DNA of 64,000 nucleotides from the IMG/VR virus record IMGVR_UViG_2925939204_000001. The stretch is one strand, 5' to 3'. A program made the translations under genes and the position numbers. The stretch's first letter is position 1; each line of letters starts with the position of its first letter. Positions 39,545 through 60,587 of the stretch are shown here, in pieces. The notes under the pieces are model-generated. The model was not told where the DNA came from. It worked only from the letters and a program-made list of their open reading frames with translations, and searched no databases. The stretch is from a virus. Its lineage: Duplodnaviria > Heunggongvirae > Uroviricota > Caudoviricetes.

Positions 39545-39778
39545 ATGGAGAATATCTATTTCAGCCCAACGACCGTTGGTTTTTATGTTTCTGAACAAGA
39601 GCGACCTGATGATGCGGTTGAAGTCTCGCCAGAGGTGGAGGCATTTTTGAGGGAGTGTGTTATCTGGGGAGCGGATACATTTAACGTAGAGCGAGATGCA
39701 GCAACGGTGACATATCCAACAGAACTGCTTGAATATGTCACCACCTACAACGCCCCCGTTAAATATCCTGCGGATTGA
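39545..39778 (+). CDS. tail fibre assembly (Tfa)-like N-terminal domain protein (77 aa)
   Basis: N-terminus [18 protein letters not shown] matches Tfa pattern; lacks conserved Tfa C-terminus. Confidence 0.45.
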
Positions 39779-40169: not shown

Positions 40170-40643
40170 TCTTAATACCCCAGCGCGATAAAACAACAAT
40201 CTTTGGTGCCCTCTCCGGATGGCGACCAGTTCTGAATACTGATATGCGTTCTGCTGGCAATACGCACATTCATCGCGGCATTGTAGCCAGATGTTCCACG
40301 GTTTCCGGTCGCAAATAAGCCTGCATAGGGAAAAGCAAATGGTAAGCCGCTCTAACTGCTATACGACCAAGGCTTCATCTCTGGAAAACATACGCAGAAC
40401 CTTTTTTAACCCTTGGCGTTTAGCCTTTTTGCCACTCGCTTTGCCCTCAAAAATTAGCTCACATCCTGCGCTTTCAAGGGGGCGTTGCAAAGCGGTGTTT
40501 TGGTCATTTGTTGATATGCGAATGTATCTAATAAGCATATGTCTCCCCTTGTATGTTAAGGAAGGAGATTTTAGAAGATGTCCTGTAAGGAAATAACAAA
40601 CTGACTAAGGTAGTGGCGCATTAGATGTTATTTCTGGAGGGGT

Positions 40644-40970
40644 ATGTTTGCAGATTATGAAAATCTGGCTGTAGTAGTCATAACATCCCTACTAAGTGGA
40701 ACCGGCGTATTCCTTCTCGGAGTTAGAGACGGGCGCATTTCTGCGTCCCTGCTCAATCTTGCGAGTGAATTGTTTACTGCGGTAACAGCCGGGCTTGCGG
40801 GGTATGGGGTGGCGGTTAGCCAAGAATGGCCTGAAGGTATCATTTTCTGCGTTGTTCTGATTGCCAGTAACAACGGTAGTGAAATTTTACAGGGCTTGAA
40901 GTCCAGAGCTAGTAACGTCTTGAATCTCTTAAGCGTAATAGCGAATGGGGGAAAAGGTGGAGAGAAATAA
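40644..40970 (+). CDS. small three-TM membrane protein, holin-like (P1 LydA-like?)
   Basis: 108 aa with three hydrophobic segments; first gene of operon. Confidence 0.4.
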   Translation: MFADYENLAVVVITSLLSGTGVFLLGVRDGRISASLLNLASELFTAVTAGLAGYGVAVSQEWPEGIIFCVVLIASNNGSEILQGLKSRASNVLNLLSVIANGGKGGEK

Positions 40971-41416
40971 TGGGTAACTTTGGAAATTATTTCATTTTTA
41001 TCATGGCATTTGTTGCCATCATTGACCGTTTCATTTTTCGTCGCAAGAGTGTTGAGATTTTGAGTATTGGTGACGCTGTAGTGAAAGAATCCGCTATAGC
41101 ATTTCCTGTTTCGCTACGTGTTAAGCGAAGCTGGTTCAGCAATGCTCAAATCGAATATTGGTTGCAAGACCTGAAAAATCCATCTGTGGTTATTTCAGGG
41201 AAAACGCGACCAGTTGACGCTTCAAAACGCGGTGAGAGAGAAGAGTATTTGCTCATCGATACGAAATATCTTGAGCCAACGAAGTGGGATCTGAAAGTCA
41301 CATTGACTAACGGTAACTGCCGACTGAATCCGCTTTATCGCATTTTCCCTATCAATGACTGCATAGAGCGCCAGTTTACGATCGAAAAGCGTGAAGGAGA
41401 CTGGGATGTCAAATAA
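40970..41416 (+). CDS. N-terminally anchored membrane protein (148 aa; LydB-like?)
   Basis: Single N-terminal TM (YFIFIMAFVAIIDRFIF); start overlaps upstream stop. Confidence 0.4.
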   Translation: MGNFGNYFIFIMAFVAIIDRFIFRRKSVEILSIGDAVVKESAIAFPVSLRVKRSWFSNAQIEYWLQDLKNPSVVISGKTRPVDASKRGEREEYLLIDTKYLEPTKWDLKVTLTNGNCRLNPLYRIFPINDCIERQFTIEKREGDWDVK

Positions 41417-42026
41417 GAATAATTATGTTCTTCTTAATTATGATGAGTTAAACGAAAAGGGGCTGGCAAAACTCGTCAAAGAAATCAGCAAAGGTGGTTA
41501 CAAGATAGCGAGGGTGATCCCTGCAAGTAATGGCAGGAAGAAAGATGGGATCATGACGCGCACGTTTACCCTTATTGGTATTGATGAACAGACAATGGAA
41601 GTTCAGGTTAACGATACCGGTGATATATCTGGGATCAAACTGAATGGTAAAACAGTACCGTTCAAGCCAGTAAAAACAATGTCGTCTTTGGGGCAATCTC
41701 TTGCGGCTTTATTTAATCGTGGAGCAACTTCTTTCCAGAAGTCATTAGCTCGAAAACTTGCTCGTGCAGCAAAAAATATTGACGACGGAAATAAGAAGCG
41801 GCAGGGAGTTAAATCTAGCGCTCAGAAATTAGCTGAAGCGAAAGAATCACGTGATGCACTCCGTGAAGATATCGCTAATGCTAACGACAAACTGTCTAAA
41901 CTCCAGAGCAAGTCAGACAAAGTAATGCAAGATACGGGTAATGTTAAAGCTGCCTTGTCTCAGGAAGTAGCTAAGACACGTGCTCTTAAAGAAGAAATCG
42001 CGCGCCTGGAGGATGAGCATGATTAA
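41406..42026 (+). CDS. hypothetical protein with C-terminal coiled coil (207 aa)
   Basis: Start taken at MSNKNNYVLL; operon member. Confidence 0.5.
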   Translation: MSNKNNYVLLNYDELNEKGLAKLVKEISKGGYKIARVIPASNGRKKDGIMTRTFTLIGIDEQTMEVQVNDTGDISGIKLNGKTVPFKPVKTMSSLGQSLAALFNRGATSFQKSLARKLARAAKNIDDGNKKRQGVKSSAQKLAEAKESRDALREDIANANDKLSKLQSKSDKVMQDTGNVKAALSQEVAKTRALKEEIARLEDEHD

Positions 42027-43956
42027 CAATCCTTTACGAATTAATATTCAGTCTACTTTTGCTGATACGATCCCCGGCTATATGCCAAGTCGCTGGTCTT
42101 CAGAAGAATTAAGCGAAGATGACCTGATTTTTGAGGCGGCGACCTTAGAAGATATTGAGCTTGCCTATATGGGCAATGAAATTCTGGTTGTGTCTGACGA
42201 AGCTATGTTTGAGTCCATAACTACAACCAGAATTCGGTTAGCTCAAACAATGCGAGCTTTCGTCCGTGCGCTGAATCGTGGCCTGAATGGTACGAATATT
42301 ATGGCAGGGACTGATGAAGCTGGGACCGATGAAAATGGACGTAATTGTATTGGTGGTGCGATTATCGGTCGTGTACGTCGGGTAGCTAATATCCCTGTTT
42401 TGACCGCGCAGATACCGCTTACTGACGGGCAGAGTACAAGCATAATTTTCCACTCTCCAACAGCTGACGGGGCAAAAATAAAGAGTAACGACGAGCTTGT
42501 TGCATTTCAGTTTTTACTTAATAAGCGTAACGTAACTCACGTTGTCGCCCCGATTGGTGGGAGAGATGTTTCTTTAAGCCAGGTATGCCAGGCGCTATCT
42601 AATTTGATTGAGCGTAACAGCGAAAAATTTAAGAAAGCAAAAGAGCGCCAGGATAAAATGAAGGCAGATATTGAGAGTTATCTCAATGAAGCAGATAAAC
42701 TGGCAGAAGAACGGTCAATAATGATTGATCAGGTGGACGTTGCGCAACGTGGGCTGACTGAAAAGCGTGCTGCTCTTACGGAGATGCAAAAAAAACTTGA
42801 TGCCCAGAAAGCCATCAACGAGGAATTACAAGAAAAACGCGATAAATTGTTGTCTGCTAAAGGTGAAAAAACGAAGGAACGAGCGTTTAGTGACCAGCTG
42901 CGACATGTAAAACATAATCTTGCCATTGACGGAAAAACAGTGCTGGATAATGGCGCTGAAGTTAATTATATCACGTCCGGCAGTGACAATTTCGTTACGA
43001 TAATAGCACCTGAAGGTAAATTCAGTATTGATGCCAGTGCTGTCAAAGGAGGCAGTTTGGCAGATGCTGCAACCAAATTACTTAAAGCCTACCGAGAGCA
43101 TAACGCAGATAAATATAAAGTTGATGTGTTACCAGGCCAGCAGGAAGACCCCGAACCACCACAGACAGACCCCGAGACGAACCCAGTATCACAACCAGAG
43201 AGCCAGGATGTAGGTAAATACCACTATGCACTTCAATCTCGCCCGGCTGGTGTTGGTGCTGTGCCGGATGGAAATAAAGCCGTGCTTGATCGTCCTGACC
43301 AGGCTGATCAGTATTACGAATATGCTCGTCACGGTATCATTACGTATGACCGTAAACTGACAGATGAAGAAGTCAGCCAGTACGAGTTGCTCTATCTTCC
43401 TGATGAAGATGAGCTGAAAGATTTTGCAGACCAATTGGTTGCGTCCAGCATGTCGAAACATATTGATGGCTATGTGGACCTGTTTGGCAGTGACCTGAAA
43501 ACATTCAAGGCGCAAGTGAAAATTCTTTTCCGCAAAGAGTTTCCGAACGTGGCTTATCCGCTTGGTGATGGGGAGAACCTTTTCATTATGGACGTATATA
43601 ACGCCCTTCAAAATCATTCAAACGAAGCAACGCCAGAGCCTGAATTAGCACCTGTAGTTGAGCCAGAATCCCACCCACAAACAGAACCAGAGCAACAGCC
43701 AACGCCGGAAGACGCTGGAGAAGCGGCAACTGAAGCAGATCAGGAAGCAGATAAAGCGTTGGAGTACCTTAAATCCGTCCCGGTGCAGTTTACATCCCGC
43801 GATCTGACGGTAATCAGTGCCGAACTTGACCATGTGCAGGAAGCTGCAAACGCTCTTATCAGTGCTGGTCGATACGACGAGAACGAATCAACGGTTGGCG
43901 CAGCAGTTGACTACCTGATCAACATCCTGGCTGAAATTCAGCAGGGAGGTGCTTAA
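42019..43956 (+). CDS. large virion-associated protein candidate (645 aa; DarA-like by size and context)
   Basis: GGAGG SD 6 nt before ATGATT; overlapping stop/start with neighbours; coiled-coil and acidic Pro/Glu-rich segments. Confidence 0.5.
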   Translation: MINNPLRINIQSTFADTIPGYMPSRWSSEELSEDDLIFEAATLEDIELAYMGNEILVVSDEAMFESITTTRIRLAQTMRAFVRALNRGLNGTNIMAGTDEAGTDENGRNCIGGAIIGRVRRVANIPVLTAQIPLTDGQSTSIIFHSPTADGAKIKSNDELVAFQFLLNKRNVTHVVAPIGGRDVSLSQVCQALSNLIERNSEKFKKAKERQDKMKADIESYLNEADKLAEERSIMIDQVDVAQRGLTEKRAALTEMQKKLDAQKAINEELQEKRDKLLSAKGEKTKERAFSDQLRHVKHNLAIDGKTVLDNGAEVNYITSGSDNFVTIIAPEGKFSIDASAVKGGSLADAATKLLKAYREHNADKYKVDVLPGQQEDPEPPQTDPETNPVSQPESQDVGKYHYALQSRPAGVGAVPDGNKAVLDRPDQADQYYEYARHGIITYDRKLTDEEVSQYELLYLPDEDELKDFADQLVASSMSKHIDGYVDLFGSDLKTFKAQVKILFRKEFPNVAYPLGDGENLFIMDVYNALQNHSNEATPEPELAPVVEPESHPQTEPEQQPTPEDAGEAATEADQEADKALEYLKSVPVQFTSRDLTVISAELDHVQEAANALISAGRYDENESTVGAAVDYLINILAEIQQGGA

Positions 43957-44330
43957 TGACTATCTCTGTTTTAGACCGTCTGAAATTGGGTAAAGAGCTA
44001 TCAGATTTAATGCAGGCGCAGAAAACCGCGCCAGTATTACAACGCGTCGCAATTGGTAAGCAGATTGTTGATCTGATGCTTAAGCTGGGGCTGGGTGCTG
44101 CCGCTCAACCGATATCGGAACCGCAACCGCACCCACAGTCTGATCCTGTTGCAGATGAAGTTCCTAAGATAGTGACTGACTTCCTGGGCGGTGTGTTCAC
44201 AAAGTCCACACAAATGGAATTTATTGATGCGCTGCGTGGGATCTCAAACTATGTTGGCGAGTTCCTTACGTTGGAGCAGGCTAAAGAGCAGACCATCGGT
44301 TGGGTTAAAGCCAACGGATATGCCGGATAA
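43956..44330 (+). CDS. hypothetical protein (124 aa)
   Basis: Start overlaps upstream stop (TAATG). Confidence 0.5.
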   Translation: MTISVLDRLKLGKELSDLMQAQKTAPVLQRVAIGKQIVDLMLKLGLGAAAQPISEPQPHPQSDPVADEVPKIVTDFLGGVFTKSTQMEFIDALRGISNYVGEFLTLEQAKEQTIGWVKANGYAG

Positions 44331-44375
44331 TCCAAAGGGGCTGAAATACCCCTTTCACTTATCCAGTGCGCCATA

Positions 44376-45730
44376 AAACCCCGTCCTTCAGGGCGGGGAT
44401 ATAAGGCGCGGTTTTCCACCTAAATTTTTTTGTTTAAAATAGCGGGATGAAACGACTACAGGCATTTAAATTCCGGTTAAGACCAGATGGTCAACAGGAG
44501 CGAGAAATGAGGCGCTTCGCGGGAGCTTGTCGTTTCGTTTTCAATCGTGCTCTGGCGCTTCAGAATGAGAATCATGAAGCCGGGAACAAATATATTCCTT
44601 ACACAAAAATGGCTTCCTGGCTGATTGAGTGGAAAAATGCCTCTGAAACGCAATGGCTTAAAGATTCTCCCTCACAGCCATTGCAGCAATCACTGAAAGA
44701 CCTTGAGCGGGCCTACAAAAATTTCTTCCAGAAGCGTGCGGCTTTCCCCCGATTCAAAAAGCGGGGACAGAATGATGCATTCCGCTACCCGCAGGGCGTT
44801 AAGCTCGATCAGGAAAACAGCCGTATTTTTCTGCCGAAACTGGGCTGGATGCGCTACCGGAACAGCCGTCAGGTCACGGGTGTTGTGAAAAATGTCACTG
44901 TCAGCCAGTCCTGCGGTAAGTGGTACATCAGTATTCAGACAGAAAGTGAAGTATCAACTCCGGTTCACCCTTCAGCATCAATGGTCGGGCTGGATGCTGG
45001 CGTGGCTAAACTCGCCACGCTGTCAGATGGCACAGTCTTTGAGCCTGTAAACAGTTTTCAGAAAAACCAGAAGAAGCTGGCGAGACTTCAGCGACAGTTA
45101 AGCCGCAAGGTCAAATTCAGCAACAACTGGCAGAAGCAGAAACGCAAAATACAGCGACTGCATTCCTGTATCGCAAATATCCGCAGGGACTACCTTCACA
45201 AAGTCACAACGACCGTCAGCAAAAACCACGCAATGATAGTCATTGAGGATTTGAAGGTCAGCAACATGTCAAAGTCAGCAGCGGGTACGGTCAGCCAGCC
45301 GGGGCGCAATGTCCGGGCAAAATCAGGTTTAAACCGTTCGATACTGGATCAGGGCTGGTATGAAATGCGCCGCCAGCTTGAGTACAAGCAGCTCTGGCGT
45401 GGCGGTCAGGTGCTTGCTGTTCCGCCAGCGTACACAAGCCAGCGTTGCGCGTACTGTGGTCATACAGCGAAAGAAAATCGCCTGTCACAAAGTAAATTCG
45501 AGTGCCGGGCATGTGGATATACAGCGAACGCCGATATAAACGGCGCTCGTAACATTTTAGCGGCGGGACACGCCGTTCTTGCCTGTGGAGGGATGGTGCA
45601 GTCAGGCCGCCCGTTGAAGCAGGAACCCACCGAAATGATTCAGGCAACAGCCTGAGCGTAGCAGGAATCCATGTTCTTGAGGGCGTGGAGGATGTCAACT
45701 GTTCTCACATAAATCACACACTTTTTACAC
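44376..45730 (+). mobile_element. IS200/IS605-family element carrying only tnpB (IS609-like); boundaries approximate
   Basis: Subterminal hairpin CCCCGTCC-TTCA-GGGCGGGG at 44379-44398 before tnpB; no tnpA ORF. Confidence 0.6.
44447..45655 (+). CDS. tnpB: IS605-family TnpB (OrfB) RNA-guided nuclease-type protein
   Basis: Near-identical to E. coli K-12 InsQ/YdcM as recalled; C-terminal zinc-finger [25 protein letters not shown]. Confidence 0.9.
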
Positions 45731-45761: not shown

Positions 45762-47147
45762 TTGAACAAGTCAGTTACTTCTGCGCTTTCCGAGGCCGCA
45801 GATATTAACAGCGTCATTGCTCTGGTTTCTTCATTAGAGAGGAAAGAAACACGCCTTGGGCGAAGTAGCTACGTAGTCACCAGCAAAGGTGCAGAGGTAA
45901 AGACGGCTTTTAAGGTCGTTGATGCCAGCAGTCTGATCATTTCGAACAACCTTGACGGTACGATTAACCTGGCCTTCCCGGAAGAACTCCAACCACGAGA
46001 TCGTACCCGGCTATCCAGCAAACTCCAGGTTAACCGTATTGCCTCCAATTTACGCCCGGCACAATTAACGGATTCCGGTATGAGCAGCCACGGAGCGCCG
46101 ATAGTTGGTCCGGACAACGTTGTAGAATCCGGCAACGGAAGGAGTATGGGTATCTGGCGTGCCTATGAGCAAGGACAGGCGGATGAGTATCGCCAGTACC
46201 TGATCGACCATGCGAAAGAGTTTGGTCTGAATCCTGACGAAATTTCGCAAATGTCTATGCCCGTACTGGTGCGAGAAAGACTCACAGATGTAGACCGCGC
46301 TCAATTTGCCCGCGATTCAAACATTAGCGATCTGCAAGAGATGGCAGCAAGTGAAAAAGCGTATGCGGATGCGCAATTTCTCACTGAGAGCGTCATGGCG
46401 CTATTTAATCCTTCAGATGATGGAAATCTGCTGGCGCGGTCCAATGATGCGTTTATTCGTGCGTTTTTGCGCGAAATTGGCGATACAGCGACGGCAGGCT
46501 TGCTTACTGCCGATGGGCGTCCCACGAAACAGCTTATCGATCGCATCCAGAATGCAATTTTTGCCAAAGCGTACAAGGATGAAAGGCTTGTTCGGCTGGT
46601 GTCGGAAGAGCCAGATCCGGAAATGCGTAATATCCTGACCGCATTAAATACGGCAGCCAGCGATTTTGCGCAAATGCAGTCGCTGTCTGGCGACGCTCAC
46701 CATGACGCAGTAACAGGCTTAGTGGACGGTATAGAGCAGGTTAATGGCCTGGATACACAGGCGATAGCAGCACTCCAGGAAGCAATTAATCTTGTACGTG
46801 AAGCCAAAGACAACGGTCAGGCCGTTGAAGAAGTGATCGCCCAAAGGGGGTTATTCGGCGACAGTACACCGGAAGCTGAGGCATTGGCGCTATTCATCGT
46901 AGCAAATAATCGCAGTGCGAAGCGTATGGGGGCCGCATTCAAAAAAATGGCGCAAAAAATCAACGACGAGCTGACTCATAAACAACAGGCATTGGGCGAT
47001 ATGTTCGGCGGTGGCGATGTTGATCTGCGTCGTATTTTGTCTGCTGTATCTGATGAAATTGAGGGTGAATTTGGCGAAGGGAAAGGTCTGAACTTTGCTA
47101 TGCTTGAAAATTCTACAGATCTAAATAATTGCAGTATGGAAAACTAA
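45762..47147 (+). CDS. hypothetical protein, head-module candidate (461 aa, TTG start)
   Basis: GGGGGGAG SD 8 nt upstream of TTG. Confidence 0.55.
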   Translation: MNKSVTSALSEAADINSVIALVSSLERKETRLGRSSYVVTSKGAEVKTAFKVVDASSLIISNNLDGTINLAFPEELQPRDRTRLSSKLQVNRIASNLRPAQLTDSGMSSHGAPIVGPDNVVESGNGRSMGIWRAYEQGQADEYRQYLIDHAKEFGLNPDEISQMSMPVLVRERLTDVDRAQFARDSNISDLQEMAASEKAYADAQFLTESVMALFNPSDDGNLLARSNDAFIRAFLREIGDTATAGLLTADGRPTKQLIDRIQNAIFAKAYKDERLVRLVSEEPDPEMRNILTALNTAASDFAQMQSLSGDAHHDAVTGLVDGIEQVNGLDTQAIAALQEAINLVREAKDNGQAVEEVIAQRGLFGDSTPEAEALALFIVANNRSAKRMGAAFKKMAQKINDELTHKQQALGDMFGGGDVDLRRILSAVSDEIEGEFGEGKGLNFAMLENSTDLNNCSMEN

Positions 47148-47158
47148 ACCAACCGCTG

Positions 47159-47211: not shown

Positions 47212-48894
47212 ATGGCAACGAAAGACAAAAACAAAGGCTTTCTGTCAGCATTGAAGAAAGCCTTCAACGGTGGTGATGTTACGCCCGCCGATCCGGTCGT
47301 TTTTACGAGCGGGCATAGTGTCGTTGCTCGTTCCGGCCTGTCTGCTTTACGTCCAGGTATACTGGGGAGCAACAGCGATGGCATGACGAGTGCAGCAGAT
47401 TCAATTTCTTTATCCGCTGAACTGCCCGGCGAGCGCCTGCAAAAGTACAACATCCTGGAAACGATGGCTAAAAGCCCGACTATCTCGACGGCTTTAAACA
47501 TTCACATTGCACATGCGCTTGCGCCTTCAAAAAAAACCGGACAAGCATTCATCCTTTCGCCAAAGGATGGTTCCGATGCCGAGGCAGTAAGTAGATGTGA
47601 AGAGTTAACCGCTGATTTGGGGGCGATGATTAATGACGGACTTCCTTCATGGGCCATGATTATGGCTATCTTTGGGGTGTCTTATGTCCGACCTTATGCT
47701 GAACAGGGCAGGGGGATAACAGGCATTGAGTCCAGTTATTACACTCTGCCACACTTCGTCCAGGAGTTTTATCGTGGTAGCCAGCTGGTAGGTTTCAGTG
47801 GTGATTACATTCTGGATACGCATAGTTTGCGCAGAGTAATAACCGAACCGTGGAATCTGGTTTCCATGAAAAATCCCTATTGGACGCCACAGCATAAAGT
47901 TATTCCGGTTAGCTACGGCACAAAAGGGTACTCACTGTTAAGTGATCAGGCTGATAAGCCGTTAATGGAGACGCAGAATTACGGAACTTCATTCCTGGAA
48001 TACAGCTATGAACCTTACCTTAATTTATGTGCTTCGCTCGCCGCGCTGAAATCAACGCGAAATAATGCAGCCAAAATTGACCGCCTGATTGCTCTTACGA
48101 CGAACACACTGGACCCGGTTAATGCGGCGAACTATACGCGTGGCGTCAGCCAGGCATTGAAGCGTCATAGTGACCTGGTGGCGCAAAGGTCGATTAATGC
48201 CAACGCTATTCCGACTGTGCTTAACCATCTGATACCTGTTATGGGAGACGGGAAGAACGGCATCACCATTGATACGCAATCCATACCCGCAGATATCAGT
48301 GGTATCGAAGACGTTATGTTTCACCTCCGGCAGCTTGCTGCAAGCCTCGGCATTGACGCAACAATGCTTGGCTGGGCTGATCAGATGAGCGGAGGGCTTG
48401 GAGAAGGCGGCTGGCAGCAAACTGCTATCCAGGCTGCATTGCGTGCGAACTGGATCAGACAGGCCGCCCAGCGAACTATTTATCGGCTTCTGGACATTCA
48501 CCTCGCTTATAAATACGGCAAGGTTTACACCGAAACAAACCGCCCTTATGACGTGCAATTCAACTCAATGAACACTGCTATCCAGGAAGAGGAAAACCGA
48601 GAACTGGATGCACGCGCCAACTTTGTTGCTGTCATCTCCCAAATTATGGACCAGATCCAGAACAACCCGAAACTGGCTGGTAGTGACGCGTTTATGCGTT
48701 ATCTGTTCACCGAGCAGTTGCACATCGACGATGACACTCTCAACACCATGATCAAAGAGTTTAAGGCGAATGAATCAGAGCAAAACAGCGAGCATGGTAT
48801 GTACGAATCCGCGCCGTTGTCGTCCGGTGACGATCCGGAAAACTGGACGCCAGAACAGTTAATAAACTTTGCAAAATTTGTGATGAGCAATTAA
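47212..48894 (+). CDS. portal protein candidate (560 aa)
   Basis: Size and position before a protease/scaffold-like gene; no motif confirmed. Confidence 0.4.
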   Translation: MATKDKNKGFLSALKKAFNGGDVTPADPVVFTSGHSVVARSGLSALRPGILGSNSDGMTSAADSISLSAELPGERLQKYNILETMAKSPTISTALNIHIAHALAPSKKTGQAFILSPKDGSDAEAVSRCEELTADLGAMINDGLPSWAMIMAIFGVSYVRPYAEQGRGITGIESSYYTLPHFVQEFYRGSQLVGFSGDYILDTHSLRRVITEPWNLVSMKNPYWTPQHKVIPVSYGTKGYSLLSDQADKPLMETQNYGTSFLEYSYEPYLNLCASLAALKSTRNNAAKIDRLIALTTNTLDPVNAANYTRGVSQALKRHSDLVAQRSINANAIPTVLNHLIPVMGDGKNGITIDTQSIPADISGIEDVMFHLRQLAASLGIDATMLGWADQMSGGLGEGGWQQTAIQAALRANWIRQAAQRTIYRLLDIHLAYKYGKVYTETNRPYDVQFNSMNTAIQEEENRELDARANFVAVISQIMDQIQNNPKLAGSDAFMRYLFTEQLHIDDDTLNTMIKEFKANESEQNSEHGMYESAPLSSGDDPENWTPEQLINFAKFVMSN

Positions 48895-48907: not shown

Positions 48908-49906
48908 ATGCAATCACTGAATACTGTTACGGATCGCTTCTCCCTGGTAGAGAAAATCCGCAAACACACACCGCAGAACAACCGAAATTACGTCATTCAG
49001 TCGGTACGAGACACATTCAACTCGCCAGAAACAAAAGAGCGTATCGCGCTGGGTGAGATGTATGGTTATTACGGTCATGGTCGCCGGGCGATGCACTATA
49101 ACAAAACGAAAAGCCTGAACTTGCCGGAAGTCTCTGTTGTGATGGTAGATGGGAAGCCTGTTGTATTGGAGAACGTGCCGTCAAACAGGACTATCAACAT
49201 TTCGATTGACGACAACGGCATTGTTACTCATACGCAGGAAATACTGGATACAGACACCGGGCGTATTGTTCAGGGCATGATTAATTCTGGTGCTGGTGGT
49301 TGGTCGTGGGCTACATCTGGCCCAGATTCATCGGTATCCCTGGTAAAGTCTTTCCACGGCTTTGATTACGTAACTGTGCCTAACTATATCAGCCTCGACA
49401 AGAAAAGCCTGATGCTTGAATCAGCAGAAGAGCGCGATGCGGCTATTCATGCAGCACTTATCGAACAAGGTTTTACCGATAACGCTGCTACGGATCTGGT
49501 TCACCACTTTTCAGCAATGAAAAATCAGCAAGCCATGCTCGAATCTGCACATCGTGAAGCCCTGGAATCAGAATTGATGCTCCTTGAAGTGGAAAACATA
49601 CAGCTTCGAGATAAGCTGCGCGCTCAAACAGCGATGATGGAAAGCCAGGGGGAAAATGCAAAGCAATGCCGCCGGATTTTGCGTGACGCTATCCAGGAAA
49701 TGCCTGTTTTTATCAGCGCAGAACAGCGCCGGGCGCTCTGCCGTATGCAGTCTGAAGATGATGCCCGCATAGTGGCTGCGATGCTTGAATCTCTTGGGGC
49801 AAATGCTACTTATGGCTTACCGGTATCAGGCAAGAAAGAACCAGAGTTATCACCGAAGGAGAACAAAAACACCACCCCGTTACTCTTCGTTTCCAGAAGG
49901 GGGTGA
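48908..49906 (+). CDS. head maturation protease/scaffold-like protein candidate (332 aa)
   Basis: Globular N-terminal domain followed by long coiled coil; inference from context. Confidence 0.35.
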   Translation: MQSLNTVTDRFSLVEKIRKHTPQNNRNYVIQSVRDTFNSPETKERIALGEMYGYYGHGRRAMHYNKTKSLNLPEVSVVMVDGKPVVLENVPSNRTINISIDDNGIVTHTQEILDTDTGRIVQGMINSGAGGWSWATSGPDSSVSLVKSFHGFDYVTVPNYISLDKKSLMLESAEERDAAIHAALIEQGFTDNAATDLVHHFSAMKNQQAMLESAHREALESELMLLEVENIQLRDKLRAQTAMMESQGENAKQCRRILRDAIQEMPVFISAEQRRALCRMQSEDDARIVAAMLESLGANATYGLPVSGKKEPELSPKENKNTTPLLFVSRRG

Positions 49907-53204: not shown

Positions 53205-56200
53205 GTGAAAATAACATTCTCCATACCCTCTCAACCGTACCGCATAGCGGAATTTTTACGGTTTAGAGGGGGAAATCCTTTGGACAAACTACTTCATTCA
53301 ATCAGTGAAGCCTCCAGCTTAGGCGAACTGATTGAAATTGTTAGTCGGTTGCATAAATTACGAGCTGTTGCGACCTTTGGCGTCAGGAAAGCCGATGGCG
53401 TCAGTATTCAGAAAACACGCCGGGCAGCAAACAATGCCGCAGTAAATCTTCTTAATTCCCTTCCGCCCGGCTTCGATGGGGCGAAATTAACTGACGAACA
53501 ACGTCAGATTCTTGCCGGGTATACCGGTGAAGGCGGCCTGACAGATGGTGAGGGCAGCCAATACGAATACTACACGCCACAGTTTATGGCTGAAGGTATA
53601 TGGGATCTGTTTGCTGACTACGGTATTGATGGCGGGCACGTACTGGAACCATCAGCGGGCACAGGTATTTTCCAGGAGACAAAACGACAGGGCATGATAA
53701 TGACCAGCGCCGAACTGTCTCCGATTTCCGGTCGAATAAACCAGCTTTTGCACCCGGAAGACGATGTGAATATCGGGGCGTTTGAGGCGCTGGCGGCGAA
53801 AGACGCAATGTATGATCACGCTGTTGGTAACGTACCGTTTGGTGAAGGGCGTTCCGGTGTCGCCGGGCTTGATCCGGCATATGCAAACGAGAAGAACGTT
53901 GGCAATTACTTTGTGCTGCGCACGATCGACAAGGTTAAGCCTGGTGGGCTTATCGTATTGGTGGTGCCGAATGGCATGACCGATGGTGCGAAATATAAAA
54001 AATTGCGCGATAAAGTCAGCCGTAAAGCGGAATTTTTGGGCGCGCATCGTATGCCTTCCGGTACGTTCAGTGAATCAGGTACAGATACCGTGGTGGACGT
54101 ATGGGTATTGCGTAAACACCCGGAAGCCTTCCTGGAGATGATCCCCGATACGGATGATTCGACGCTCAAATCGGCAAACGTCCTTTGGGATACCTTCCTC
54201 AAAGGAAAATGGTTTACAACCGAAGGGAAGCGATTTGTTTACGGCGACATGGAACGTACCAGCTTCCGCAATACCCTGGTGGTGAAAAAAGACGGTCGTG
54301 TATCCAATGAGTCGATGAAAACCGCGCTATCTCGTCGCTTTGATAGTCGCATCAATTGGGATTTGCTCGGCGTAACTACTCAGGCATGGCAGGGCGCGAA
54401 AGTGGGCGATAAACGCCTTGTAGGCGGTATCTGGCATGAGTTTGATGGTCTGAAATGGGTTAAGGACACGACAACCAAATCCTCCGCGCTTGATGTAAGT
54501 CGATATGGTGTTTCGACGTTTGGCGATCTGCAGATCGCGTTTCAGTCAACAAATGGCATTCTGGCTTTGTCATGGGACCAGATATCGGCGATCGCGTCTG
54601 ACTACCCATCGGTTGTCAGTGATGAAGTGGCAGCAATGATTCGCTTTGCTGGCAAGCAGCGAGAAAAAGACAGGGAGCGCGTTATGCGCGGTGCACTGAT
54701 AGGTCAGTTGATCAACAAGGCACTTGATTTGCGTAACCTGGGGGTGAACGTTGATGACAAACTGGCAGATGCATCCCGCCTGGCGGCAGCAGAAGTTGCG
54801 AAGTATGGACCACCGCACGCGATTAAGCTGAATGGGCTTGCTGAAGCTGGCGCTAAAAACTGGATGACGTTCACTGGCAATGTGAAACAGGATGGTTCCA
54901 CTTCTGACCTTCTGGCAGGGCGACTTGATGTAACGGATGGTGCTGCCGGTATTGACTTTACGCGTCCTGAACAAGTGATAGCACATCTTTTTAGTGATGT
55001 AGCCCTTAATCCTATAACGCTTGGCGACTTTCGTGAGGCGTTTGCTGGTGAACTGCCAGAGGACGACGACGCGGCCCTTGAATACCTGGCGAAATTTGAT
55101 GATATCGCTATTGATGGGTATGGCTGTCTGCTGCCGATGGACCGCGCCACCAGCGGCGATGTTGCAACCAAAACAGCACTGCTGGTGGGCTGGCGTGATG
55201 CGTCAACAGGTGAGCAGAAAGCGAACTTTGAGCGTCAGTTGGCGAAAATCGAAGAGAAACGCATTTTCACGCCACTAAATAAAGTCACCGTTAATCTGAA
55301 TGCCCGCTGGCTGGATCGCCGCTTGATAAAAGAGTTCCTGGCAGAGCAGGGCTATGACGAGTTTAAGTACACTGAACCTGATCTGAAGGTCGTCGATGGC
55401 ATTCTGGTATCTCCGGACGATTACGAAGGTAAGGACGGTGTATTTACCGGCTACCAGCTACGAACCGTAAACGGCAAAAACGGGAATGAGTTCAAGAAGG
55501 CCAACAATAAAGACGGCTTCCTGAACCAGTTAGAAAACTACCTGAACGGTGTTAAACCGCGTGGGCAGAATGCTAACGAGTACCTGGATAAAATTGCTCA
55601 ACTGGAAGTTAGCTTTAACGACTGGTTACGCACCCACCCGCAGGCGGATCAGATAGCCCGTGACTATAACGACGCATTCAATGGTTTCATTCCGTTCACA
55701 CATTCTGACGCACCGCTAGGCCTGGAAGGGATTAGTGGAAAGCGCATTCCTCTGACTTATCAGAATGAAGAAGTTCGCCGCTTGTCAGAAGATGGGCGTG
55801 GCATCATGGGATTTGGTACCGGGCTGGGTAAAACCACGACCGCGCTTGCGCTTGAGGCGTATAACTTCGAAACAGGTCGCACTAAACGCACGTGTATTGT
55901 TGTTCCGAAGGCGGTTTATCAGAACTGGTATCACGAGGCACAGAGTTTCTACAGTGCTGATGCCTTCGCCAATATGATGTTTATCGGTTTGGATGAAGTT
56001 CGTGATGACGGCGGAAATATTCTTACCGCGCCAGTGCTTGATGAAAATGGCGAACCACGCCTCGACAGTAACGGGCAGCCTCTTACCAGAAATGTTGTGA
56101 AAGAGTCCGCCAGCGCCGTTATCGTTCAGCGCATGAACATGATCCCGTCGTCAAATTGGCGAACGGTCATCATGACAAAAGAACAATTCGCGTCTATCCC

Positions 56201-59200
56201 GCTACGAGAAAAAACCATCGAGGAGAACTCACAGCAAGCTGTCTTTAATGCTGTGGAAATGGGGCGTCTTGACCTGGCCTCCGGTAAACACCGTGATGCG
56301 CAGAAGAAGAACAAGATTAAGGATCAGGCCGCGAATACCGGTACAACGAAGAAGCAGAATATCCCGTACTTTGAGGATATGAACTTCGATAGCGTGATTG
56401 CCGACGAGGGGCATAACTACCGCAACTCCTTTAATGCCGGGCGTGAAGCGGGACAACTGGCATATTTGCCTAACCCGGCAGTATCCAAGATGGCCCGCGA
56501 CATGGCTGTAAAAGCTGCGTACATGATGAAACGCAACAACGGGCGTGGTGTAGTCATGCTGACGGCAACTCCGCTGGTGAACAGTCCGATTGATGCCTTC
56601 AACATGCTGTCTACTGTCATTCCGCAGGAAGAGTGGATGCGCATGGGTATTGTTACGCCGGATGATTTCGTTCGCGTGTTCGGCAAAACAGCCACAGTTC
56701 AGGTTCAGAAAATTTCCGGTGAGGTGGAAGAGAAGCAGGGGCTGGTGGGCTTCCAGAACCTTGATGGTCTGCGTGGTATTTTCCACCGTTGGACCACTCT
56801 GAAGACTGCCGCAGATGTCGGAGCGACGGTTAAAATTCCCGATATCATCGAGAACACCTTGCAGATCCCGATGACAGGGGAGCAGGAGGCTGCTTATGAA
56901 GAGCTTCGTAAGCGTGCTCAGGAGTTAAGTCGCAATGATGAGCTGACAGTCGATGAAAACGGGCATATCACTAACGACAAACCGGATGATTTCATCTTCT
57001 CCATCATCCGCGACATGGATAAGGTTGCTATAGATCCGGATCTGTATGCCAGTGCGATTACATTCCAGTTCCCCGTTGAGCTTGCAGACAAGGTAAAAGC
57101 TATTGCTGATGCCCTGCCAAAAGTCGCAGGCGGTAAAGTGGCAGATGATGCAGACGAGGCCGAAGAAGACGGCGCTGGTGGACTGGTCAGTACGCGTACC
57201 AGCAAGGTAGTGAAGACCACCTTTAGTGCACATCCGGCGCATGTTGAAATACGCGCCAGCATTGAACTGGAAGCTGAAATACTGAAGGCCATTGCTGCCG
57301 CCGGGATTGATCTGCAGCAGGTATCACACCCCATCCCACCGAAGTATGCCGCGCTGATCGAAAACCTTCGTGAAGGTCTGAAGAACGGTAAACAAATTGT
57401 CTTCATTGATGAAAAAGCCCAGCACCAGAAGCTGCGCCGTATTATCGCCAGTGCACTGCAAATGCCGGAGCAGGAGATAGGCATTATCAATGCGACGACC
57501 GTTAGCCAAGCTGGCGGCATCAAGCTGAAGAAGGTGAATAAACCGACTGAACCTACTCCGAATAAAAACGGTGAATACAAAGAAGGGGCATGGGAAACCT
57601 ACTACAGCAAACTTGCCCAATATGAGGATTATCTCTCAGCTAAAAATGATGCTGGCCTTGAGGGCATGGAAGGTATTGCCGCCGACTATAACGAAGGTCG
57701 CACGCGCATCATAATCTGTAACAAGAAGGCTGAAGTAGGTATTAACCTGCACATCGGGACAACCGATATCCACCACCTGACACTACCCTGGACACCAGCC
57801 AGTATCGACCAACGAAATGGTCGCGGTGCGCGCGTAGGGTCACCGCAAGAGAAGGTCAATGTTCACTACTATTGTGGCAAAGGCACATTCGATGACTTCC
57901 GTCTGGATACGCTTAAACGTAAGAAAGACTGGATCAAGATGGTGATGACCTCCGACATGTCAGAGATCGCCAATGGTGATGCGGATGATGCTGATGAACG
58001 CGCCATTATGCTGGCGGCAAACCCGGAAGAACGCCGCGCAATCATGGCTCGCCAGGCGCAAGAGCGTGAAGAACGTCTGAAACTGAAAGCACAGCGCGAG
58101 GCCAACAATGCTCTCGATATCTACCTGAAAGCGGCAAACGCCGCCGGAAAAGATATCGGCATGATGGAGACAGAACTGAAAAGCGCGATGGAACAGATAG
58201 AGTATTACCAGCGAAATCTTGACGACCTGATAAAAGCGGGTACGAACAGGAATGGGCAAAAATACGCACTTGAGCAGTTGAGTAGCTACAGAAAACGTGC
58301 GCGGGTGCTGCGGTTTGCGATCACCAGGGCAAAAGACGCGGATACCATAATGAAACGCTCTCGTGGTGATGTGGAGCGCGCTATTAAGTCTGGTGTGCTG
58401 GATATCAGTATCGATGTTATTCAGAACCCACAGGAGTATATGCGCACTGACAAGAATATCCTGTTGCATAAAGGTAGTTATTACCGTGCAGTCATTGATG
58501 ATCGCGAAACAACAGCGATTGTCCGGGTGGAAAAAATTGACGGTGAAAAAGCACAATACCTCTGCCGTATCGCCTGGCTGGATAGAGCAAGTCGTTACGC
58601 TCGAGCACCGGGGTCAATCGTTACATTGCCGTTTGACTCTGTGATTGAAGCGGTAACTTTTGAAGAGGGGGTAGCTGAATCGCGCGCAACGGCTGCGCGA
58701 GGTGTTCAGTGCCACCAGCTATCAACAATACTTACTCGCGATCAGTTCTATGATGCTATTCGCAATGGGGTAATGAATGTTATTGCTGGTAAACCTGGTA
58801 ATGCATGGGGCGGTGGGTCAGCTATTAAATACTGGGCATATCGCACAGATGATGGTCAGATCGCGCTGTCATCGGCCTATGATGGCGTGATAGGCCAAAA
58901 AATCGGGCGAGCATCGGATATAGCACCTGAGCGATGGATATATCCTGATGGCAACGACGAGGCGCTGAAGCGTGAAGTAGCAAAAATACAAGCCAGTGAT
59001 AACCCGCTGAATATCGTGGACGGCGAGGGATTCCTCCAGGCATTGTATGGGTATGATTACATCCAGGGAATGCAGGCATGGGGCGCACAGGCAACGATGG
59101 ATGATGTTGCCCAGGAGTTCGAAAACTGGATGGCTGGGCGTGGTCTGTCAGGTCGTTCGCTTAATAAAGTCACTTCTGAAGATATTCTTAGCTTGTTCCG

Positions 59201-60116
59201 CAAACCGTCCGGAGAAGGTCTGGAATCATTCTGGAGGACCGTGCTGGCATACCGTTTATTCCAGGGCAGGATGAAAGCCTTTAGCAATATCGATGATATT
59301 GAACGGATGTTTAATCAGGTCAAGATCGCGAAAATTAAGGCGAAGATCGAAAAAACACGTTCTGCGCTGGTGGCCTGGCGCGATGCATTGTTTGAGCAAT
59401 ATAAATCACTCAGTGATGCAGATGGATGGGCGGCATTGGAACAGCTGGCGAATAATGGGGTAGATGGAGCTAAACTCGCCATTGTTCAGGCTGATAACCC
59501 CCTGGAATCACCGGCAGCACAGTGGATTAAGGTGGGGGCTGTCATCAATGCATTTGATGAAAAACACATTAGTAAGGACGATTTTGCTGATGCTGTTTCT
59601 GTTAATCGCCTGGTAGAAATGGCTACCCGCCGCGCCCGTGAGTTGAAAGACGGCGACTATGTGAATGAGTTGCCGGATACGCTCAAATCGGCAACGTGGC
59701 AGGACTATGTATCGCTGAAAAACGGCGGGGCCACTGAATCAGAGATCGCGGAAAGGCTTGAGCAGGCTGAAAGCAAAAGAGAAGAGCAGGCGGCAGTGGC
59801 TGAAGCCAGAGCTGATGAAGCGGCGAATGATGACTATATCATTGTGGTTAATGATAAGCCGATTCGCGCTAAGGCGCGTGTTCGCGGGCGCTGGTGGAGC
59901 GTCAGCGAGGACGTTGGCGCGGTTTATCTCATTGCCGACCAACCAGGTTCCTCGACAATACGGAACGCCAAAGACGCGATTAAGAAGATTGGCGGGCGTT
60001 TCTGGAATTTTGAAGCAAACCCGGTTGCTGATGTGAACTTTGACCGTCCTGCATGGATGGTATCTACGCGTTACTCGGTAGATGAACTGCGTAAAATAAT
60101 CGCCGATGCGGCCTAA
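53205..60116 (+). CDS. darB: giant methyltransferase-helicase, DarB-like virion antirestriction protein (2303 aa, GTG start)
   Basis: N-terminal N6-adenine MTase motifs (LEPSAGTGIF, GNVPFG); central SF2 helicase motifs (GFGTGLGKTT, ADEGHNYRN, LTATPLVNSP, QRNGRGARVG); architecture matches P1 DarB as recalled. Confidence 0.8.
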   Translation: MKITFSIPSQPYRIAEFLRFRGGNPLDKLLHSISEASSLGELIEIVSRLHKLRAVATFGVRKADGVSIQKTRRAANNAAVNLLNSLPPGFDGAKLTDEQRQILAGYTGEGGLTDGEGSQYEYYTPQFMAEGIWDLFADYGIDGGHVLEPSAGTGIFQETKRQGMIMTSAELSPISGRINQLLHPEDDVNIGAFEALAAKDAMYDHAVGNVPFGEGRSGVAGLDPAYANEKNVGNYFVLRTIDKVKPGGLIVLVVPNGMTDGAKYKKLRDKVSRKAEFLGAHRMPSGTFSESGTDTVVDVWVLRKHPEAFLEMIPDTDDSTLKSANVLWDTFLKGKWFTTEGKRFVYGDMERTSFRNTLVVKKDGRVSNESMKTALSRRFDSRINWDLLGVTTQAWQGAKVGDKRLVGGIWHEFDGLKWVKDTTTKSSALDVSRYGVSTFGDLQIAFQSTNGILALSWDQISAIASDYPSVVSDEVAAMIRFAGKQREKDRERVMRGALIGQLINKALDLRNLGVNVDDKLADASRLAAAEVAKYGPPHAIKLNGLAEAGAKNWMTFTGNVKQDGSTSDLLAGRLDVTDGAAGIDFTRPEQVIAHLFSDVALNPITLGDFREAFAGELPEDDDAALEYLAKFDDIAIDGYGCLLPMDRATSGDVATKTALLVGWRDASTGEQKANFERQLAKIEEKRIFTPLNKVTVNLNARWLDRRLIKEFLAEQGYDEFKYTEPDLKVVDGILVSPDDYEGKDGVFTGYQLRTVNGKNGNEFKKANNKDGFLNQLENYLNGVKPRGQNANEYLDKIAQLEVSFNDWLRTHPQADQIARDYNDAFNGFIPFTHSDAPLGLEGISGKRIPLTYQNEEVRRLSEDGRGIMGFGTGLGKTTTALALEAYNFETGRTKRTCIVVPKAVYQNWYHEAQSFYSADAFANMMFIGLDEVRDDGGNILTAPVLDENGEPRLDSNGQPLTRNVVKESASAVIVQRMNMIPSSNWRTVIMTKEQFASIPLREKTIEENSQQAVFNAVEMGRLDLASGKHRDAQKKNKIKDQAANTGTTKKQNIPYFEDMNFDSVIADEGHNYRNSFNAGREAGQLAYLPNPAVSKMARDMAVKAAYMMKRNNGRGVVMLTATPLVNSPIDAFNMLSTVIPQEEWMRMGIVTPDDFVRVFGKTATVQVQKISGEVEEKQGLVGFQNLDGLRGIFHRWTTLKTAADVGATVKIPDIIENTLQIPMTGEQEAAYEELRKRAQELSRNDELTVDENGHITNDKPDDFIFSIIRDMDKVAIDPDLYASAITFQFPVELADKVKAIADALPKVAGGKVADDADEAEEDGAGGLVSTRTSKVVKTTFSAHPAHVEIRASIELEAEILKAIAAAGIDLQQVSHPIPPKYAALIENLREGLKNGKQIVFIDEKAQHQKLRRIIASALQMPEQEIGIINATTVSQAGGIKLKKVNKPTEPTPNKNGEYKEGAWETYYSKLAQYEDYLSAKNDAGLEGMEGIAADYNEGRTRIIICNKKAEVGINLHIGTTDIHHLTLPWTPASIDQRNGRGARVGSPQEKVNVHYYCGKGTFDDFRLDTLKRKKDWIKMVMTSDMSEIANGDADDADERAIMLAANPEERRAIMARQAQEREERLKLKAQREANNALDIYLKAANAAGKDIGMMETELKSAMEQIEYYQRNLDDLIKAGTNRNGQKYALEQLSSYRKRARVLRFAITRAKDADTIMKRSRGDVERAIKSGVLDISIDVIQNPQEYMRTDKNILLHKGSYYRAVIDDRETTAIVRVEKIDGEKAQYLCRIAWLDRASRYARAPGSIVTLPFDSVIEAVTFEEGVAESRATAARGVQCHQLSTILTRDQFYDAIRNGVMNVIAGKPGNAWGGGSAIKYWAYRTDDGQIALSSAYDGVIGQKIGRASDIAPERWIYPDGNDEALKREVAKIQASDNPLNIVDGEGFLQALYGYDYIQGMQAWGAQATMDDVAQEFENWMAGRGLSGRSLNKVTSEDILSLFRKPSGEGLESFWRTVLAYRLFQGRMKAFSNIDDIERMFNQVKIAKIKAKIEKTRSALVAWRDALFEQYKSLSDADGWAALEQLANNGVDGAKLAIVQADNPLESPAAQWIKVGAVINAFDEKHISKDDFADAVSVNRLVEMATRRARELKDGDYVNELPDTLKSATWQDYVSLKNGGATESEIAERLEQAESKREEQAAVAEARADEAANDDYIIVVNDKPIRAKARVRGRWWSVSEDVGAVYLIADQPGSSTIRNAKDAIKKIGGRFWNFEANPVADVNFDRPAWMVSTRYSVDELRKIIADAA

Positions 60117-60152: not shown

Positions 60153-60587
60153 ATGACGACATTAATTGACACTGTAAAACAGACGGAATCCTACCTTGAG
60201 GACATTTTGCCGCAGGCGCTCAATGGCAGGAGTGAAGAGGCGTTTCTGGATGCATATCTGAAAGGCATGGTGGAAAGGCTGAAACGAGATCCACAGCTTT
60301 ATCACCTTTATGGGCCGTGGTGGCCTGCGCTTAAAACGTTATTGCTGGAGCGCGGCGACATATCATTTGGACAAGTTGTAGATAGTGATGTGGCAGAGAT
60401 CTACAAAATGAGTCGCCCGGCGCTTACGGTTTTGGCTGGGCATCTGTATTCGAGCGATCGCCTGGAAAATGACGCGGTATACAATCCTGTTCATGCTCTG
60501 GAAGTCGCACCTTATGCCGATGATACAGAGCCATACGTGTACACAAGTTACGACGAGTCTATAGAGAAATATCGAATTATGGGGTAG
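60153..60587 (+). CDS. acidic hypothetical protein (144 aa)
   Basis: ORF directly after darB; D/E-rich. Confidence 0.5.
   Translation: MTTLIDTVKQTESYLEDILPQALNGRSEEAFLDAYLKGMVERLKRDPQLYHLYGPWWPALKTLLLERGDISFGQVVDSDVAEIYKMSRPALTVLAGHLYSSDRLENDAVYNPVHALEVAPYADDTEPYVYTSYDESIEKYRIMG

What the first reader, a model, noticed from the sequence alone, without database searches (positions are those of the whole stretch)
40644..44330. Operon resembling the P1 darA antirestriction operon (holin-like genes followed by a ~645-aa virion protein)
Gene sizes and order (108-aa three-TM protein, 148-aa anchored protein, 207-aa, 645-aa, 124-aa, all translationally coupled) match my recollection of the P1 lydA-lydB-darA region. 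Together with the DarB-like gene at 53205, the element probably packages a Dar-type antirestriction system into the capsid.
Basis: inference. Interest (0 to 1): 0.45.

Follow-up and report, generated by a model that had tools for sequence, protein, structure and literature searches.

The report
P1-type Dar antirestriction operon, D6 lineage

Summary
The observation and the interpretation both hold. Window 40644-44330 (+) carries five intact genes whose starts and stops overlap (108, 148, 206, 645 and 124 aa). Each is a clear homologue of P1 LydA, LydB, Hdf, DarA and DdrA, in P1 order: 34-43% identity, E 5e-22 to 1e-139. Pfam and PHROGs agree, and DarA and Hdf match the solved P1 virion chains 9ukm_I and 9ukm_H. 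The other Dar components are also present: DdrB (45762-47147), DarB (53205-60116, 40% identity over the full length) and Ulx (60153-60587). So are the portal and the Pro head protease.

The window is 100% identical to E. coli AR_0118 plasmid NZ_CP020051.1. It is about 98% identical here to phage D6, whose annotation already names these genes after their P1 counterparts. The finding is therefore already known.

Differences from P1:
- There is no lydC.
- DdrB is only the ParB-like N-terminal half (461 vs 995 aa).
- The operon runs co-directionally into prt-pro.
- A 1336-bp IS200/IS605 element carrying only tnpB lies between ddrA and ddrB.

A related IS sits at the same gene junction in P1-type plasmids, in the opposite orientation. 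This recurrence is the only mildly new point. Virion packaging and antirestriction activity are inferred from homology and were not tested.

The parts
40599..40617 (+). Candidate P1-type late promoter (box AACTGACTA, then a poor -10), 37 nt upstream of lydA
   Evidence: P1 late promoters LPmat, LPpro and LPdar share AAGTKACTW-N4-(-10). The window box is one mismatch from the LPpro box and lies where LPdar lies in P1. The box is not statistically enriched in the window (6 found, 2.8 expected). Inconclusive.
40644..40970 (+). lydA, holin (108 aa)
   Evidence: 43% identity to P1 LydA, E 1e-24. PHROG 1527 holin, 8e-39. Pfam Phage_holin_3_3 scores 18 bits, below the 28.4 cutoff. Hydrophobic segments.
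40970..41416 (+). lydB, holin antagonist (148 aa, N-terminal membrane anchor)
   Evidence: 34% identity to P1 LydB, E 3e-30. Pfam LydB 1.4e-24. PHROG 1898. Anchor at aa 3-24.
41406..42026 (+). hdf (206 aa), DarA-N-like capsid-internal protein
   Evidence: 39% identity to P1 Hdf, E 1e-31. Pfam DarA_N 1e-17. PDB 9ukm_H 'Hdf', 1e-24. PHROG 1620.
42019..43956 (+). darA (645 aa), internal head protein needed to incorporate the other Dar proteins
   Evidence: 38% identity to P1 DarA over 624 aa, E 1e-139. Pfam DarA_N 5e-40 and DarA_C 8.5e-19. PDB 9ukm_I, 2e-120.
43956..44330 (+). ddrA (124 aa)
   Evidence: 34% identity to P1 DdrA, E 5e-22. PHROG 1855 DdrA-like, 2e-48. No Pfam family.
44364..45699 (+). 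IS200/IS605-family element (1336 bp, tnpB only, no tnpA), inserted 3' of CTTAT between ddrA and ddrB and co-oriented with the operon. It interrupts the system but does not belong to it.
   Evidence: Absent from D6. The junction alignment shows no target duplication. Left-end hairpin. tnpB at 44447-45655 has Pfam OrfB_IS605, Cas12f1-like_TNB and HTH_OrfB_IS605. RefSeq calls it 'RNA-guided endonuclease TnpB family protein'.
45762..47147 (+). ddrB, short form (461 aa; ParB-like N-terminal half only)
   Evidence: 65% identity to P1 DdrB aa 2-434. Pfam ddrB-ParB 2.5e-42. tblastn with the P1 DdrB C-terminal half (aa 440-995, with HExxH) finds nothing in the window. D6 DdrB is also short, 454 aa.
47212..48894 (+). 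prt, portal protein, directly downstream on the same strand
   Evidence: Annotated as portal protein in the identical plasmid and in D6 ('similar to P1 gene prt'). Pfam Portal_T4 is just below its cutoff, 22 vs 22.9 bits.
48908..49906 (+). pro, head-processing protease that cleaves DarA in P1
   Evidence: 44% identity to P1 Pro, E 4e-86.
53205..60116 (+). darB (2303 aa), methyltransferase plus SNF2/helicase polyprotein
   Evidence: 40% identity to P1 DarB over about 2370 aligned columns, 1521 bits. Pfam SNF2-rel_dom, Helicase_C, ResIII and N6_Mtase.
60153..60587 (+). ulx (144 aa), DarB-associated Dar component
   Evidence: 46% identity to P1 Ulx, E 3e-43. PHROG 1629 Ulx-like.

Best explanation
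This is the lydA-lydB-hdf-darA-ddrA(-ddrB) late operon of a phage D6-like member of the P1 family, carried as a 91-kb plasmid prophage in E. coli. By homology with P1, LydA is a holin and LydB is its membrane-anchored antagonist; together they time lysis. Hdf and DarA are made late, bind the inner face of the capsid as pairs and contact the packaged DNA. DarA is trimmed at its N-terminus by the Pro head protease, whose gene lies just downstream. Hdf and DarA are needed to load DdrA, DdrB, DarB and Ulx into the head. On infection these proteins leave the capsid with the DNA and protect only that DNA (in cis) from type I restriction enzymes. Shown here: gene presence, intactness, order, overlaps, and homology of every component. 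Inferred: late expression, virion packaging, antirestriction activity and which restriction systems are countered.
For: Each protein is homologous to its P1 counterpart, and gene order is the same as in P1. Family models agree. DarA and Hdf match the solved P1 capsid-internal chains 9ukm_I and 9ukm_H. The region is about 98% identical to phage D6, whose record annotates every gene as 'similar to P1 gene lydA/lydB/hdf/darA/ddrA/ddrB', and 100% identical to plasmid NZ_CP020051.1. [quoted passage not shown] All six Dar proteins were detected in P1 virions by mass spectrometry (PMC9024508). Dar acts only in cis, against type I systems and BREX (PMC12707154). D6-like plasmid prophages are described as having anti-restriction modules with homologues to P1 (PMC6799933).
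Against: Identity to the P1 proteins is only 34-46% except for DdrB, so the specificity for particular restriction systems may differ. DdrB lacks the whole C-terminal half of P1 DdrB. An IS element separates ddrA from ddrB and may alter ddrB expression. The late-promoter match is weak and not statistically supported. The element has a truncated cin and an exchanged tail-fibre region, so it is not certain that this particular prophage still makes infectious particles. Nothing functional was tested.
Confidence: 0.88

Rival explanations
1. The genes are true Dar homologues, but in this lineage they serve mainly head-size determination and lysis, and antirestriction is lost or aimed at different defence systems than in P1.
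For: Identity to P1 is only 34-46% for five of the six Dar proteins. DdrB lacks the C-terminal half that carries the putative metallopeptidase motif. In P1, Hdf and DarA have a morphogenetic role as well (PMC12810830).
Against: All six components are retained, intact and in conserved order, including the 2303-aa DarB with its methyltransferase and helicase domains. A purely structural role would not be expected to keep a gene of that size. D6 itself has the same short DdrB, so this is a stable lineage state and not decay.
Confidence: 0.08
2. The operon is a relic in a defective plasmid prophage that no longer forms virions, so nothing is packaged.
For: cin is reduced to a 59-aa remnant, and D6 homology ends at 40344 next to foreign tail-fibre DNA. 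An IS lies inside the operon. D6 orf24 and orf23 are missing.
Against: Every Dar, lysis, portal and protease gene examined is full length with no internal stops. The IS lies in an intergenic spacer and disrupts no coding sequence. Loss of cin fixes the tail-fibre orientation but would not by itself abolish particle formation (established P1 biology, from my own knowledge). The same IS-bearing arrangement occurs in 10 plasmid records.
Confidence: 0.04

Closest known systems
Escherichia phage D6 (NC_050154 / MF356679), genes orf30-orf25 (lydA, lydB, hdf, darA, ddrA, ddrB)
   Same: About 98% nucleotide identity across the operon, with the same genes, order and overlaps, the same short DdrB, no lydC, and the operon followed on the same strand by prt and pro.
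   Different: The window has a 1336-bp tnpB-only IS between ddrA and ddrB. It lacks D6 orf24 (DUF4145) and orf23 between ddrB and prt. It has a truncated cin, and different tail-fibre DNA left of 40344.
Phage P1 darA operon (lydA-lydB-hdf-darA-ddrA-ddrB) plus darB-ulx: the Dar antirestriction system
   Same: All eight proteins are homologous, and the gene order and overlapping reading frames are the same. Hdf and DarA share the DarA_N domain. DarB has the methyltransferase plus helicase architecture, and ulx follows darB.
   Different: Identity is 34-46% (65% for the DdrB N-half). P1 has an extra holin gene, lydC, between cin and lydA. P1 DdrB is 995 aa with a C-terminal HExxH region that is absent here. 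In P1 the dar operon and prt-pro are convergent and separated by about 4.5 kb, whereas here they are co-directional and adjacent.
E. coli AR_0118 plasmid unitig_3 (NZ_CP020051.1)
   Same: 100% identical over the 6.9 kb tested; this is the same sequence.
   Different: None in sequence. Its RefSeq annotation is uninformative ('head protein', 'hypothetical protein', 'lysis protein'), so the Dar identity is not spelled out in that record.
P1-type phage-plasmids RCS47 and SJ46 (insQ between ddrA and ddrB)
   Same: An IS200/IS605 tnpB-only element about 93% identical to the one here lies in the same gene junction, immediately 3' of a CTTAT motif.
   Different: It has the opposite orientation relative to the operon. 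It lies in the 12-bp P1-type spacer, using the complement of the ddrA stop codon as part of the target, in a P1-type rather than D6-type background. It is therefore an independent insertion.

Membership tests
P1-type Dar (defence against restriction) system / darA operon | DarA homologue with DarA_N and DarA_C domains | tested here: met
   BLASTP 38% identity, E 1e-139. Pfam DarA_N 5.4e-40 and DarA_C 8.5e-19, both above cutoff. PDB 9ukm_I, 2e-120.
P1-type Dar (defence against restriction) system / darA operon | Hdf (homologue of the DarA N-terminal fragment) encoded immediately upstream of darA | tested here: met
   BLASTP 39% identity, E 1e-31. Pfam DarA_N 1e-17. PDB 9ukm_H. It overlaps the darA start by 8 nt.
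P1-type Dar (defence against restriction) system / darA operon | DdrA downstream of darA | tested here: met
   BLASTP 34% identity, E 5e-22. PHROG DdrA-like 2e-48.
P1-type Dar (defence against restriction) system / darA operon | Full-length DdrB (P1: 995 aa, ParB-like N-half plus a C-half with HExxH) | tested here: not met
   Only the N-half is present: 461 aa, 65% identity to P1 aa 2-434. The C-half has no tblastn hit in the 64-kb window. D6 shares this short form. This is a lineage variant and does not argue against membership of the system as a whole.
P1-type Dar (defence against restriction) system / darA operon | DarB (about 2250-aa methyltransferase-helicase) and Ulx present in the same genome | tested here: met
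   DarB 40% identity over the full length, with Pfam N6_Mtase, SNF2, ResIII and Helicase_C. Ulx 46% identity, 3e-43.
P1-type Dar (defence against restriction) system / darA operon | Conserved gene order lydA-lydB-hdf-darA-ddrA-ddrB on one strand | tested here: met
   The order is interrupted only by an intergenic IS.
P1-type Dar (defence against restriction) system / darA operon | Lpa-dependent late promoter (LPdar) upstream of lydA | tested here: inconclusive
   The box AACTGACTA at 40599-40607 resembles the P1 AAGTKACTW boxes and is correctly placed, but the -10 is poor and the motif is not enriched in the window. An Lpa homologue was not looked for.
P1-type Dar (defence against restriction) system / darA operon | Proteins packaged in the virion head, with DarA processed by Pro | not testable with these tools
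   A Pro homologue is present (44% identity, 4e-86). Packaging is known for P1 only (PMC9024508, PMC12810830).
P1-type Dar (defence against restriction) system / darA operon | Cis-acting protection of the injected DNA from type I restriction | not testable with these tools
   Known for P1 (PMC12707154). No experimental data for D6-type elements were found in the papers read.
P1 LydA/LydB holin-antiholin pair | Small multi-spanning LydA-family holin followed by a LydB-family protein with an N-terminal anchor | tested here: met
   LydA 43% identity, 1e-24, PHROG holin 8e-39; the Pfam Phage_holin_3_3 score is below cutoff, 18 vs 28.4 bits. LydB: Pfam 87 bits vs cutoff 28. Hydropathy. Lysis function was not tested.
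IS200/IS605 insertion sequences (for the element at 44364-45699) | TnpB (OrfB_IS605 plus zinc-ribbon), subterminal hairpins, no terminal inverted repeats, no target duplication, insertion 3' of a short specific motif | tested here: met
   Pfam hits. Junctions against the empty D6 site show no duplication and insertion after CTTAT. Left-end hairpin. A related copy in RCS47 also follows CTTAT. No tnpA is present, so the element is non-autonomous.

The most novel reading that the evidence does not exclude
The ddrA-ddrB junction of P1-family Dar operons may be a recurrent, possibly selected, landing site for a tnpB-only IS200/IS605 element. It has been hit independently in the D6-type lineage (co-oriented; 10 occupied vs 95 empty plasmid records) and in the P1-type lineage (opposite orientation; 75 occupied vs 378 empty). 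The insertion could lower or uncouple ddrB expression. From my recollection of Piya et al. 2017, which could not be read here, ddrB disruption made P1 less sensitive to EcoB/EcoK restriction, so such an insertion could tune antirestriction. Alternatively the element may spread between co-resident phage-plasmids by TnpB/guide-RNA homing at the empty site.
Probability: 0.15. Interest if true: 0.4.

Novelty: already known. Interest (0 to 1): 0.12.

Why it matters
It confirms that this plasmid is a P1-family phage-plasmid carrying a complete set of capsid-delivered antirestriction proteins. That is relevant to how such elements, which often carry resistance genes, cross restriction barriers between Enterobacteriaceae strains. 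It adds nothing new to the biology, because phage D6 and its relatives are already annotated this way. The practical value is better annotation of the RefSeq record, where four of the six genes from lydA to ddrB are 'hypothetical protein'. There is also a small lead: a tnpB-only IS recurs at the ddrA-ddrB junction.

Tried and rejected
1. Chance resemblance in gene sizes only: rejected by pairwise BLASTP, Pfam, PHROGs and PDB matches.
2. A statistically supported P1-type late promoter: a correctly placed box exists, but 6 matches against 2.8 expected (9 of 100 shuffles reach 6) is not significant. The sigma-70 and terminator scans were at background level.
3. The C-terminal half of P1 DdrB encoded elsewhere in the window: no tblastn hit (best E 3.0). 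About 27 kb of the plasmid lies outside the window and was not searched.
4. Rfam scan of 40000-47500: only a sub-threshold RAGATH-18 hit inside the 3' end of tnpB (28.1 vs 44.9 bits, E 0.049). I treated it as not significant.
5. Reading Piya et al. 2017 (PMC6011833), the primary genetics paper: not held. Its content is cited only through secondary sources or marked as my recollection.
6. Technical: loci L002 and L005 were not copied to the Python sandbox, so the P1 comparisons used protein comparison and one pasted translation.
7. Structure prediction and the large protein-database searches were deliberately not used, because sequence homology to characterised and solved proteins was already decisive.
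Full report
**Observation.** The + strand of window 40644-44330 carries five ORFs: 40644-40970 (108 aa), 40970-41416 (148 aa), 41406-42026 (206 aa), 42019-43956 (645 aa) and 43956-44330 (124 aa). All start with ATG, stop with TAA and have no internal stops. Successive genes overlap by 1, 11, 8 and 1 nt. The mechanical ORF list gives longer GTG-initiated versions of the third and fourth genes (211 and 658 aa). A Kyte-Doolittle scan shows an N-terminal hydrophobic anchor in the 148-aa protein (aa 3-24). The 108-aa protein has hydrophobic stretches at aa 7-27, 43-58 and 61-79. 'Anchored' is therefore right, and 'three-TM' is plausible, but the last two stretches nearly abut.

**Identity of the sequence.** A 6.9-kb query around the region is 100% identical to E. 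coli strain AR_0118 plasmid unitig_3 (NZ_CP020051.1, 91,291 bp, circular, non-mobilizable). It is also 100% identical to a stretch of a second E. coli plasmid record, NZ_CP021720.1 (216,378 bp). Against phage records the best match is Escherichia phage D6, at 97.9% identity over the parts that align. The D6 RefSeq record annotates the corresponding genes as 'similar to P1 gene lydA / lydB / hdf / darA / ddrA / ddrB'. The window is therefore part of a D6-like plasmid prophage of the P1 family. A published study of D6-like plasmid prophages already states that their anti-restriction modules contain homologues to P1 (PMC6799933).

| Window protein | P1 counterpart | Identity | E-value / score |
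|---|---|---|---|
| 108 aa | LydA | 43% | 1e-24 |
| 148 aa | LydB | 34% | 3e-30 |
| 206 aa | Hdf | 39% | 1e-31 |
| 645 aa | DarA | 38% over 624 aa | 1e-139 |
| 124 aa | DdrA | 34% | 5e-22 |
| 461 aa (45762-47147) | DdrB, residues 2-434 | 65% | 589 bits |
| 2303 aa (53205-60116) | DarB, full length | 40% | 1521 bits |
| 144 aa (60153-60587) | Ulx | 46% | 3e-43 |

- Pfam independently gives LydB (87 bits), DarA_N in both Hdf and DarA, DarA_C in DarA, and ddrB-ParB in DdrB.
- DarB carries N6_Mtase, SNF2, ResIII and Helicase_C signatures.
- PHROGs assigns holin, lysis determining protein, Hdf-like antirestriction, the DarA family, DdrA-like and Ulx-like.
- DarA and Hdf match the only solved structures of these proteins, chains I and H of the P1 virion cryo-EM entry 9ukm (2e-120 and 1e-24).
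- The portal gene prt (annotated as portal in D6 and in the identical plasmid) and the head protease gene pro (44% identity to P1 Pro, 4e-86) follow ddrB on the same strand.

**How it most likely works.** This part is inferred from P1.
- In P1, LydA is the holin and LydB its antagonist (P1 record annotation).
- Cryo-EM shows 55 DarA-Hdf pairs bound to the inner capsid surface at penton-hexon junctions, touching the DNA. They are absent from heads that have ejected their DNA.
- Residues 1-69 of DarA are missing from the density, consistent with cleavage by Pro. [quoted passage not shown]
- All six Dar proteins are detected in purified P1 virions (PMC9024508).
- Protection acts only in cis on the DNA packaged with them, against type I systems and BREX (PMC12707154).

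The D6-type proteins align with P1 DarA from about residue 38 to the C-terminus, and with Hdf over nearly its whole length. The same architecture is therefore expected. Late expression is plausible: a box AACTGACTA lies 37 nt upstream of lydA, where P1 has LPdar, and is one mismatch from the P1 LPpro box. However the -10 is poor and the motif is not enriched in the window, so I call this inconclusive.

**Differences from P1.**
1. There is no lydC between cin and lydA, as in D6.
2. DdrB is the ParB-like N-terminal half only. The P1 C-terminal half, which contains an HExxH motif, has no counterpart in the window. D6 has the same short form, so this is a lineage feature.
3. The dar operon runs directly into prt-pro on the same strand, whereas in P1 the two are convergent and separated.

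**Differences from D6.**
1. A 1336-bp IS200/IS605-family element (44364-45699) carrying only tnpB (44447-45655) is inserted between ddrA and ddrB, co-oriented with the operon. It lies immediately 3' of CTTAT, with no target duplication and with a left-end hairpin.
2. D6 orf24 (DUF4145) and orf23 are absent.
3. cin is reduced to a 59-aa N-terminal remnant, and D6 homology stops at 40344, next to tail-fibre DNA that matches other phages.

**The one mildly unexpected point.** P1-type phage-plasmids RCS47 and SJ46 carry an element about 93% identical to this IS at the same gene junction. There it lies in the 12-bp ddrA-ddrB spacer, again right after CTTAT, but in the opposite orientation relative to the operon. 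These are therefore independent insertions. Junction-spanning queries against PLSDB give 10 occupied and 95 empty D6-type sites, and 75 occupied and 378 empty P1-type sites. These are record counts and are not phylogenetically independent. Whether this reflects a permissive spacer with the right target motif, TnpB-assisted retention or homing, or selection on ddrB expression cannot be decided here.

**Verdict.** The feature is a real, complete and well-understood system, already present in public records and already interpreted in the D6 genome annotation. Novelty: already known. Interest is low.

Noticed in passing
window 44364-45699 (tnpB 44447-45655, +): An IS200/IS605 element with tnpB only lies between ddrA and ddrB. 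An element about 93% identical sits at the same gene junction in P1-type plasmids (RCS47, SJ46), in the opposite orientation, and both follow CTTAT. PLSDB record counts are 10 occupied vs 95 empty for the D6 type and 75 vs 378 for the P1 type. By eye, the TnpB translation keeps the RuvC D/E/D and CxxC...CxxC motifs.
   Followed up: partly
window 40344-40538 (-): cin (the invertase for the tail-fibre segment) is only a 59-aa N-terminal remnant, 80% identical to D6 Cin. D6 homology ends at 40344, so the invertible tail-fibre switch is probably fixed in this plasmid.
   Followed up: partly
window 39545-40343: Left of the cin remnant, the stretch tested (40000-40346) matches tail-fibre and tail-fibre-assembly genes of other phages (phi458 and vB_EcoM-640R3, 99-100% identity), not D6. 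This suggests a recombinational exchange of the host-range module. A 100-aa tail-fibre-assembly-like ORF on the minus strand (39897-40199) looks like a leftover of the alternative orientation.
   Followed up: no
window 36552-39542 (+): The 996-aa tail-fibre ORF contains several near-identical tandem copies of a unit of about 100 aa (…GKAPSSHTHPWNQIT…TPKAVKAAYDLA…).
   Followed up: no
window 47147-47212 vs L001 11449-12594: D6 orf24 (DUF4145 domain protein) and orf23, which lie between ddrB and prt in D6, are absent here. The 3' end of ddrB also differs from D6.
   Followed up: partly
window 45762-47147 (+): D6-type DdrB is only the ParB-like N-terminal half of P1 DdrB (461 vs 995 aa). The HExxH-containing C-terminal half is missing from the whole window.
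   Followed up: yes
window 52644-53129 (-): A 161-aa ORF with a CHAP (peptidoglycan amidase/peptidase) domain lies divergently just upstream of darB. P1 has no gene at the corresponding position; there, only promoters lie between darB and prt.
   Followed up: no
window 45582-45625 (+): A sub-threshold Rfam hit to RAGATH-18 (28.1 bits vs 44.9 gathering, E 0.049) lies inside the 3' end of tnpB, where a TnpB guide-RNA scaffold would be expected. It is not significant on its own.
   Followed up: no
window 44334-44358 (+): A hairpin AAAGGGG-N8-CCCCTTT lies directly after the ddrA stop (DNA fold -5.7 kcal/mol, z = -2.9). D6 has the same stem, with differences only in the loop. There is no T-tract, so it is not an obvious terminator. 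The IS inserted 5 nt downstream of it.
   Followed up: partly
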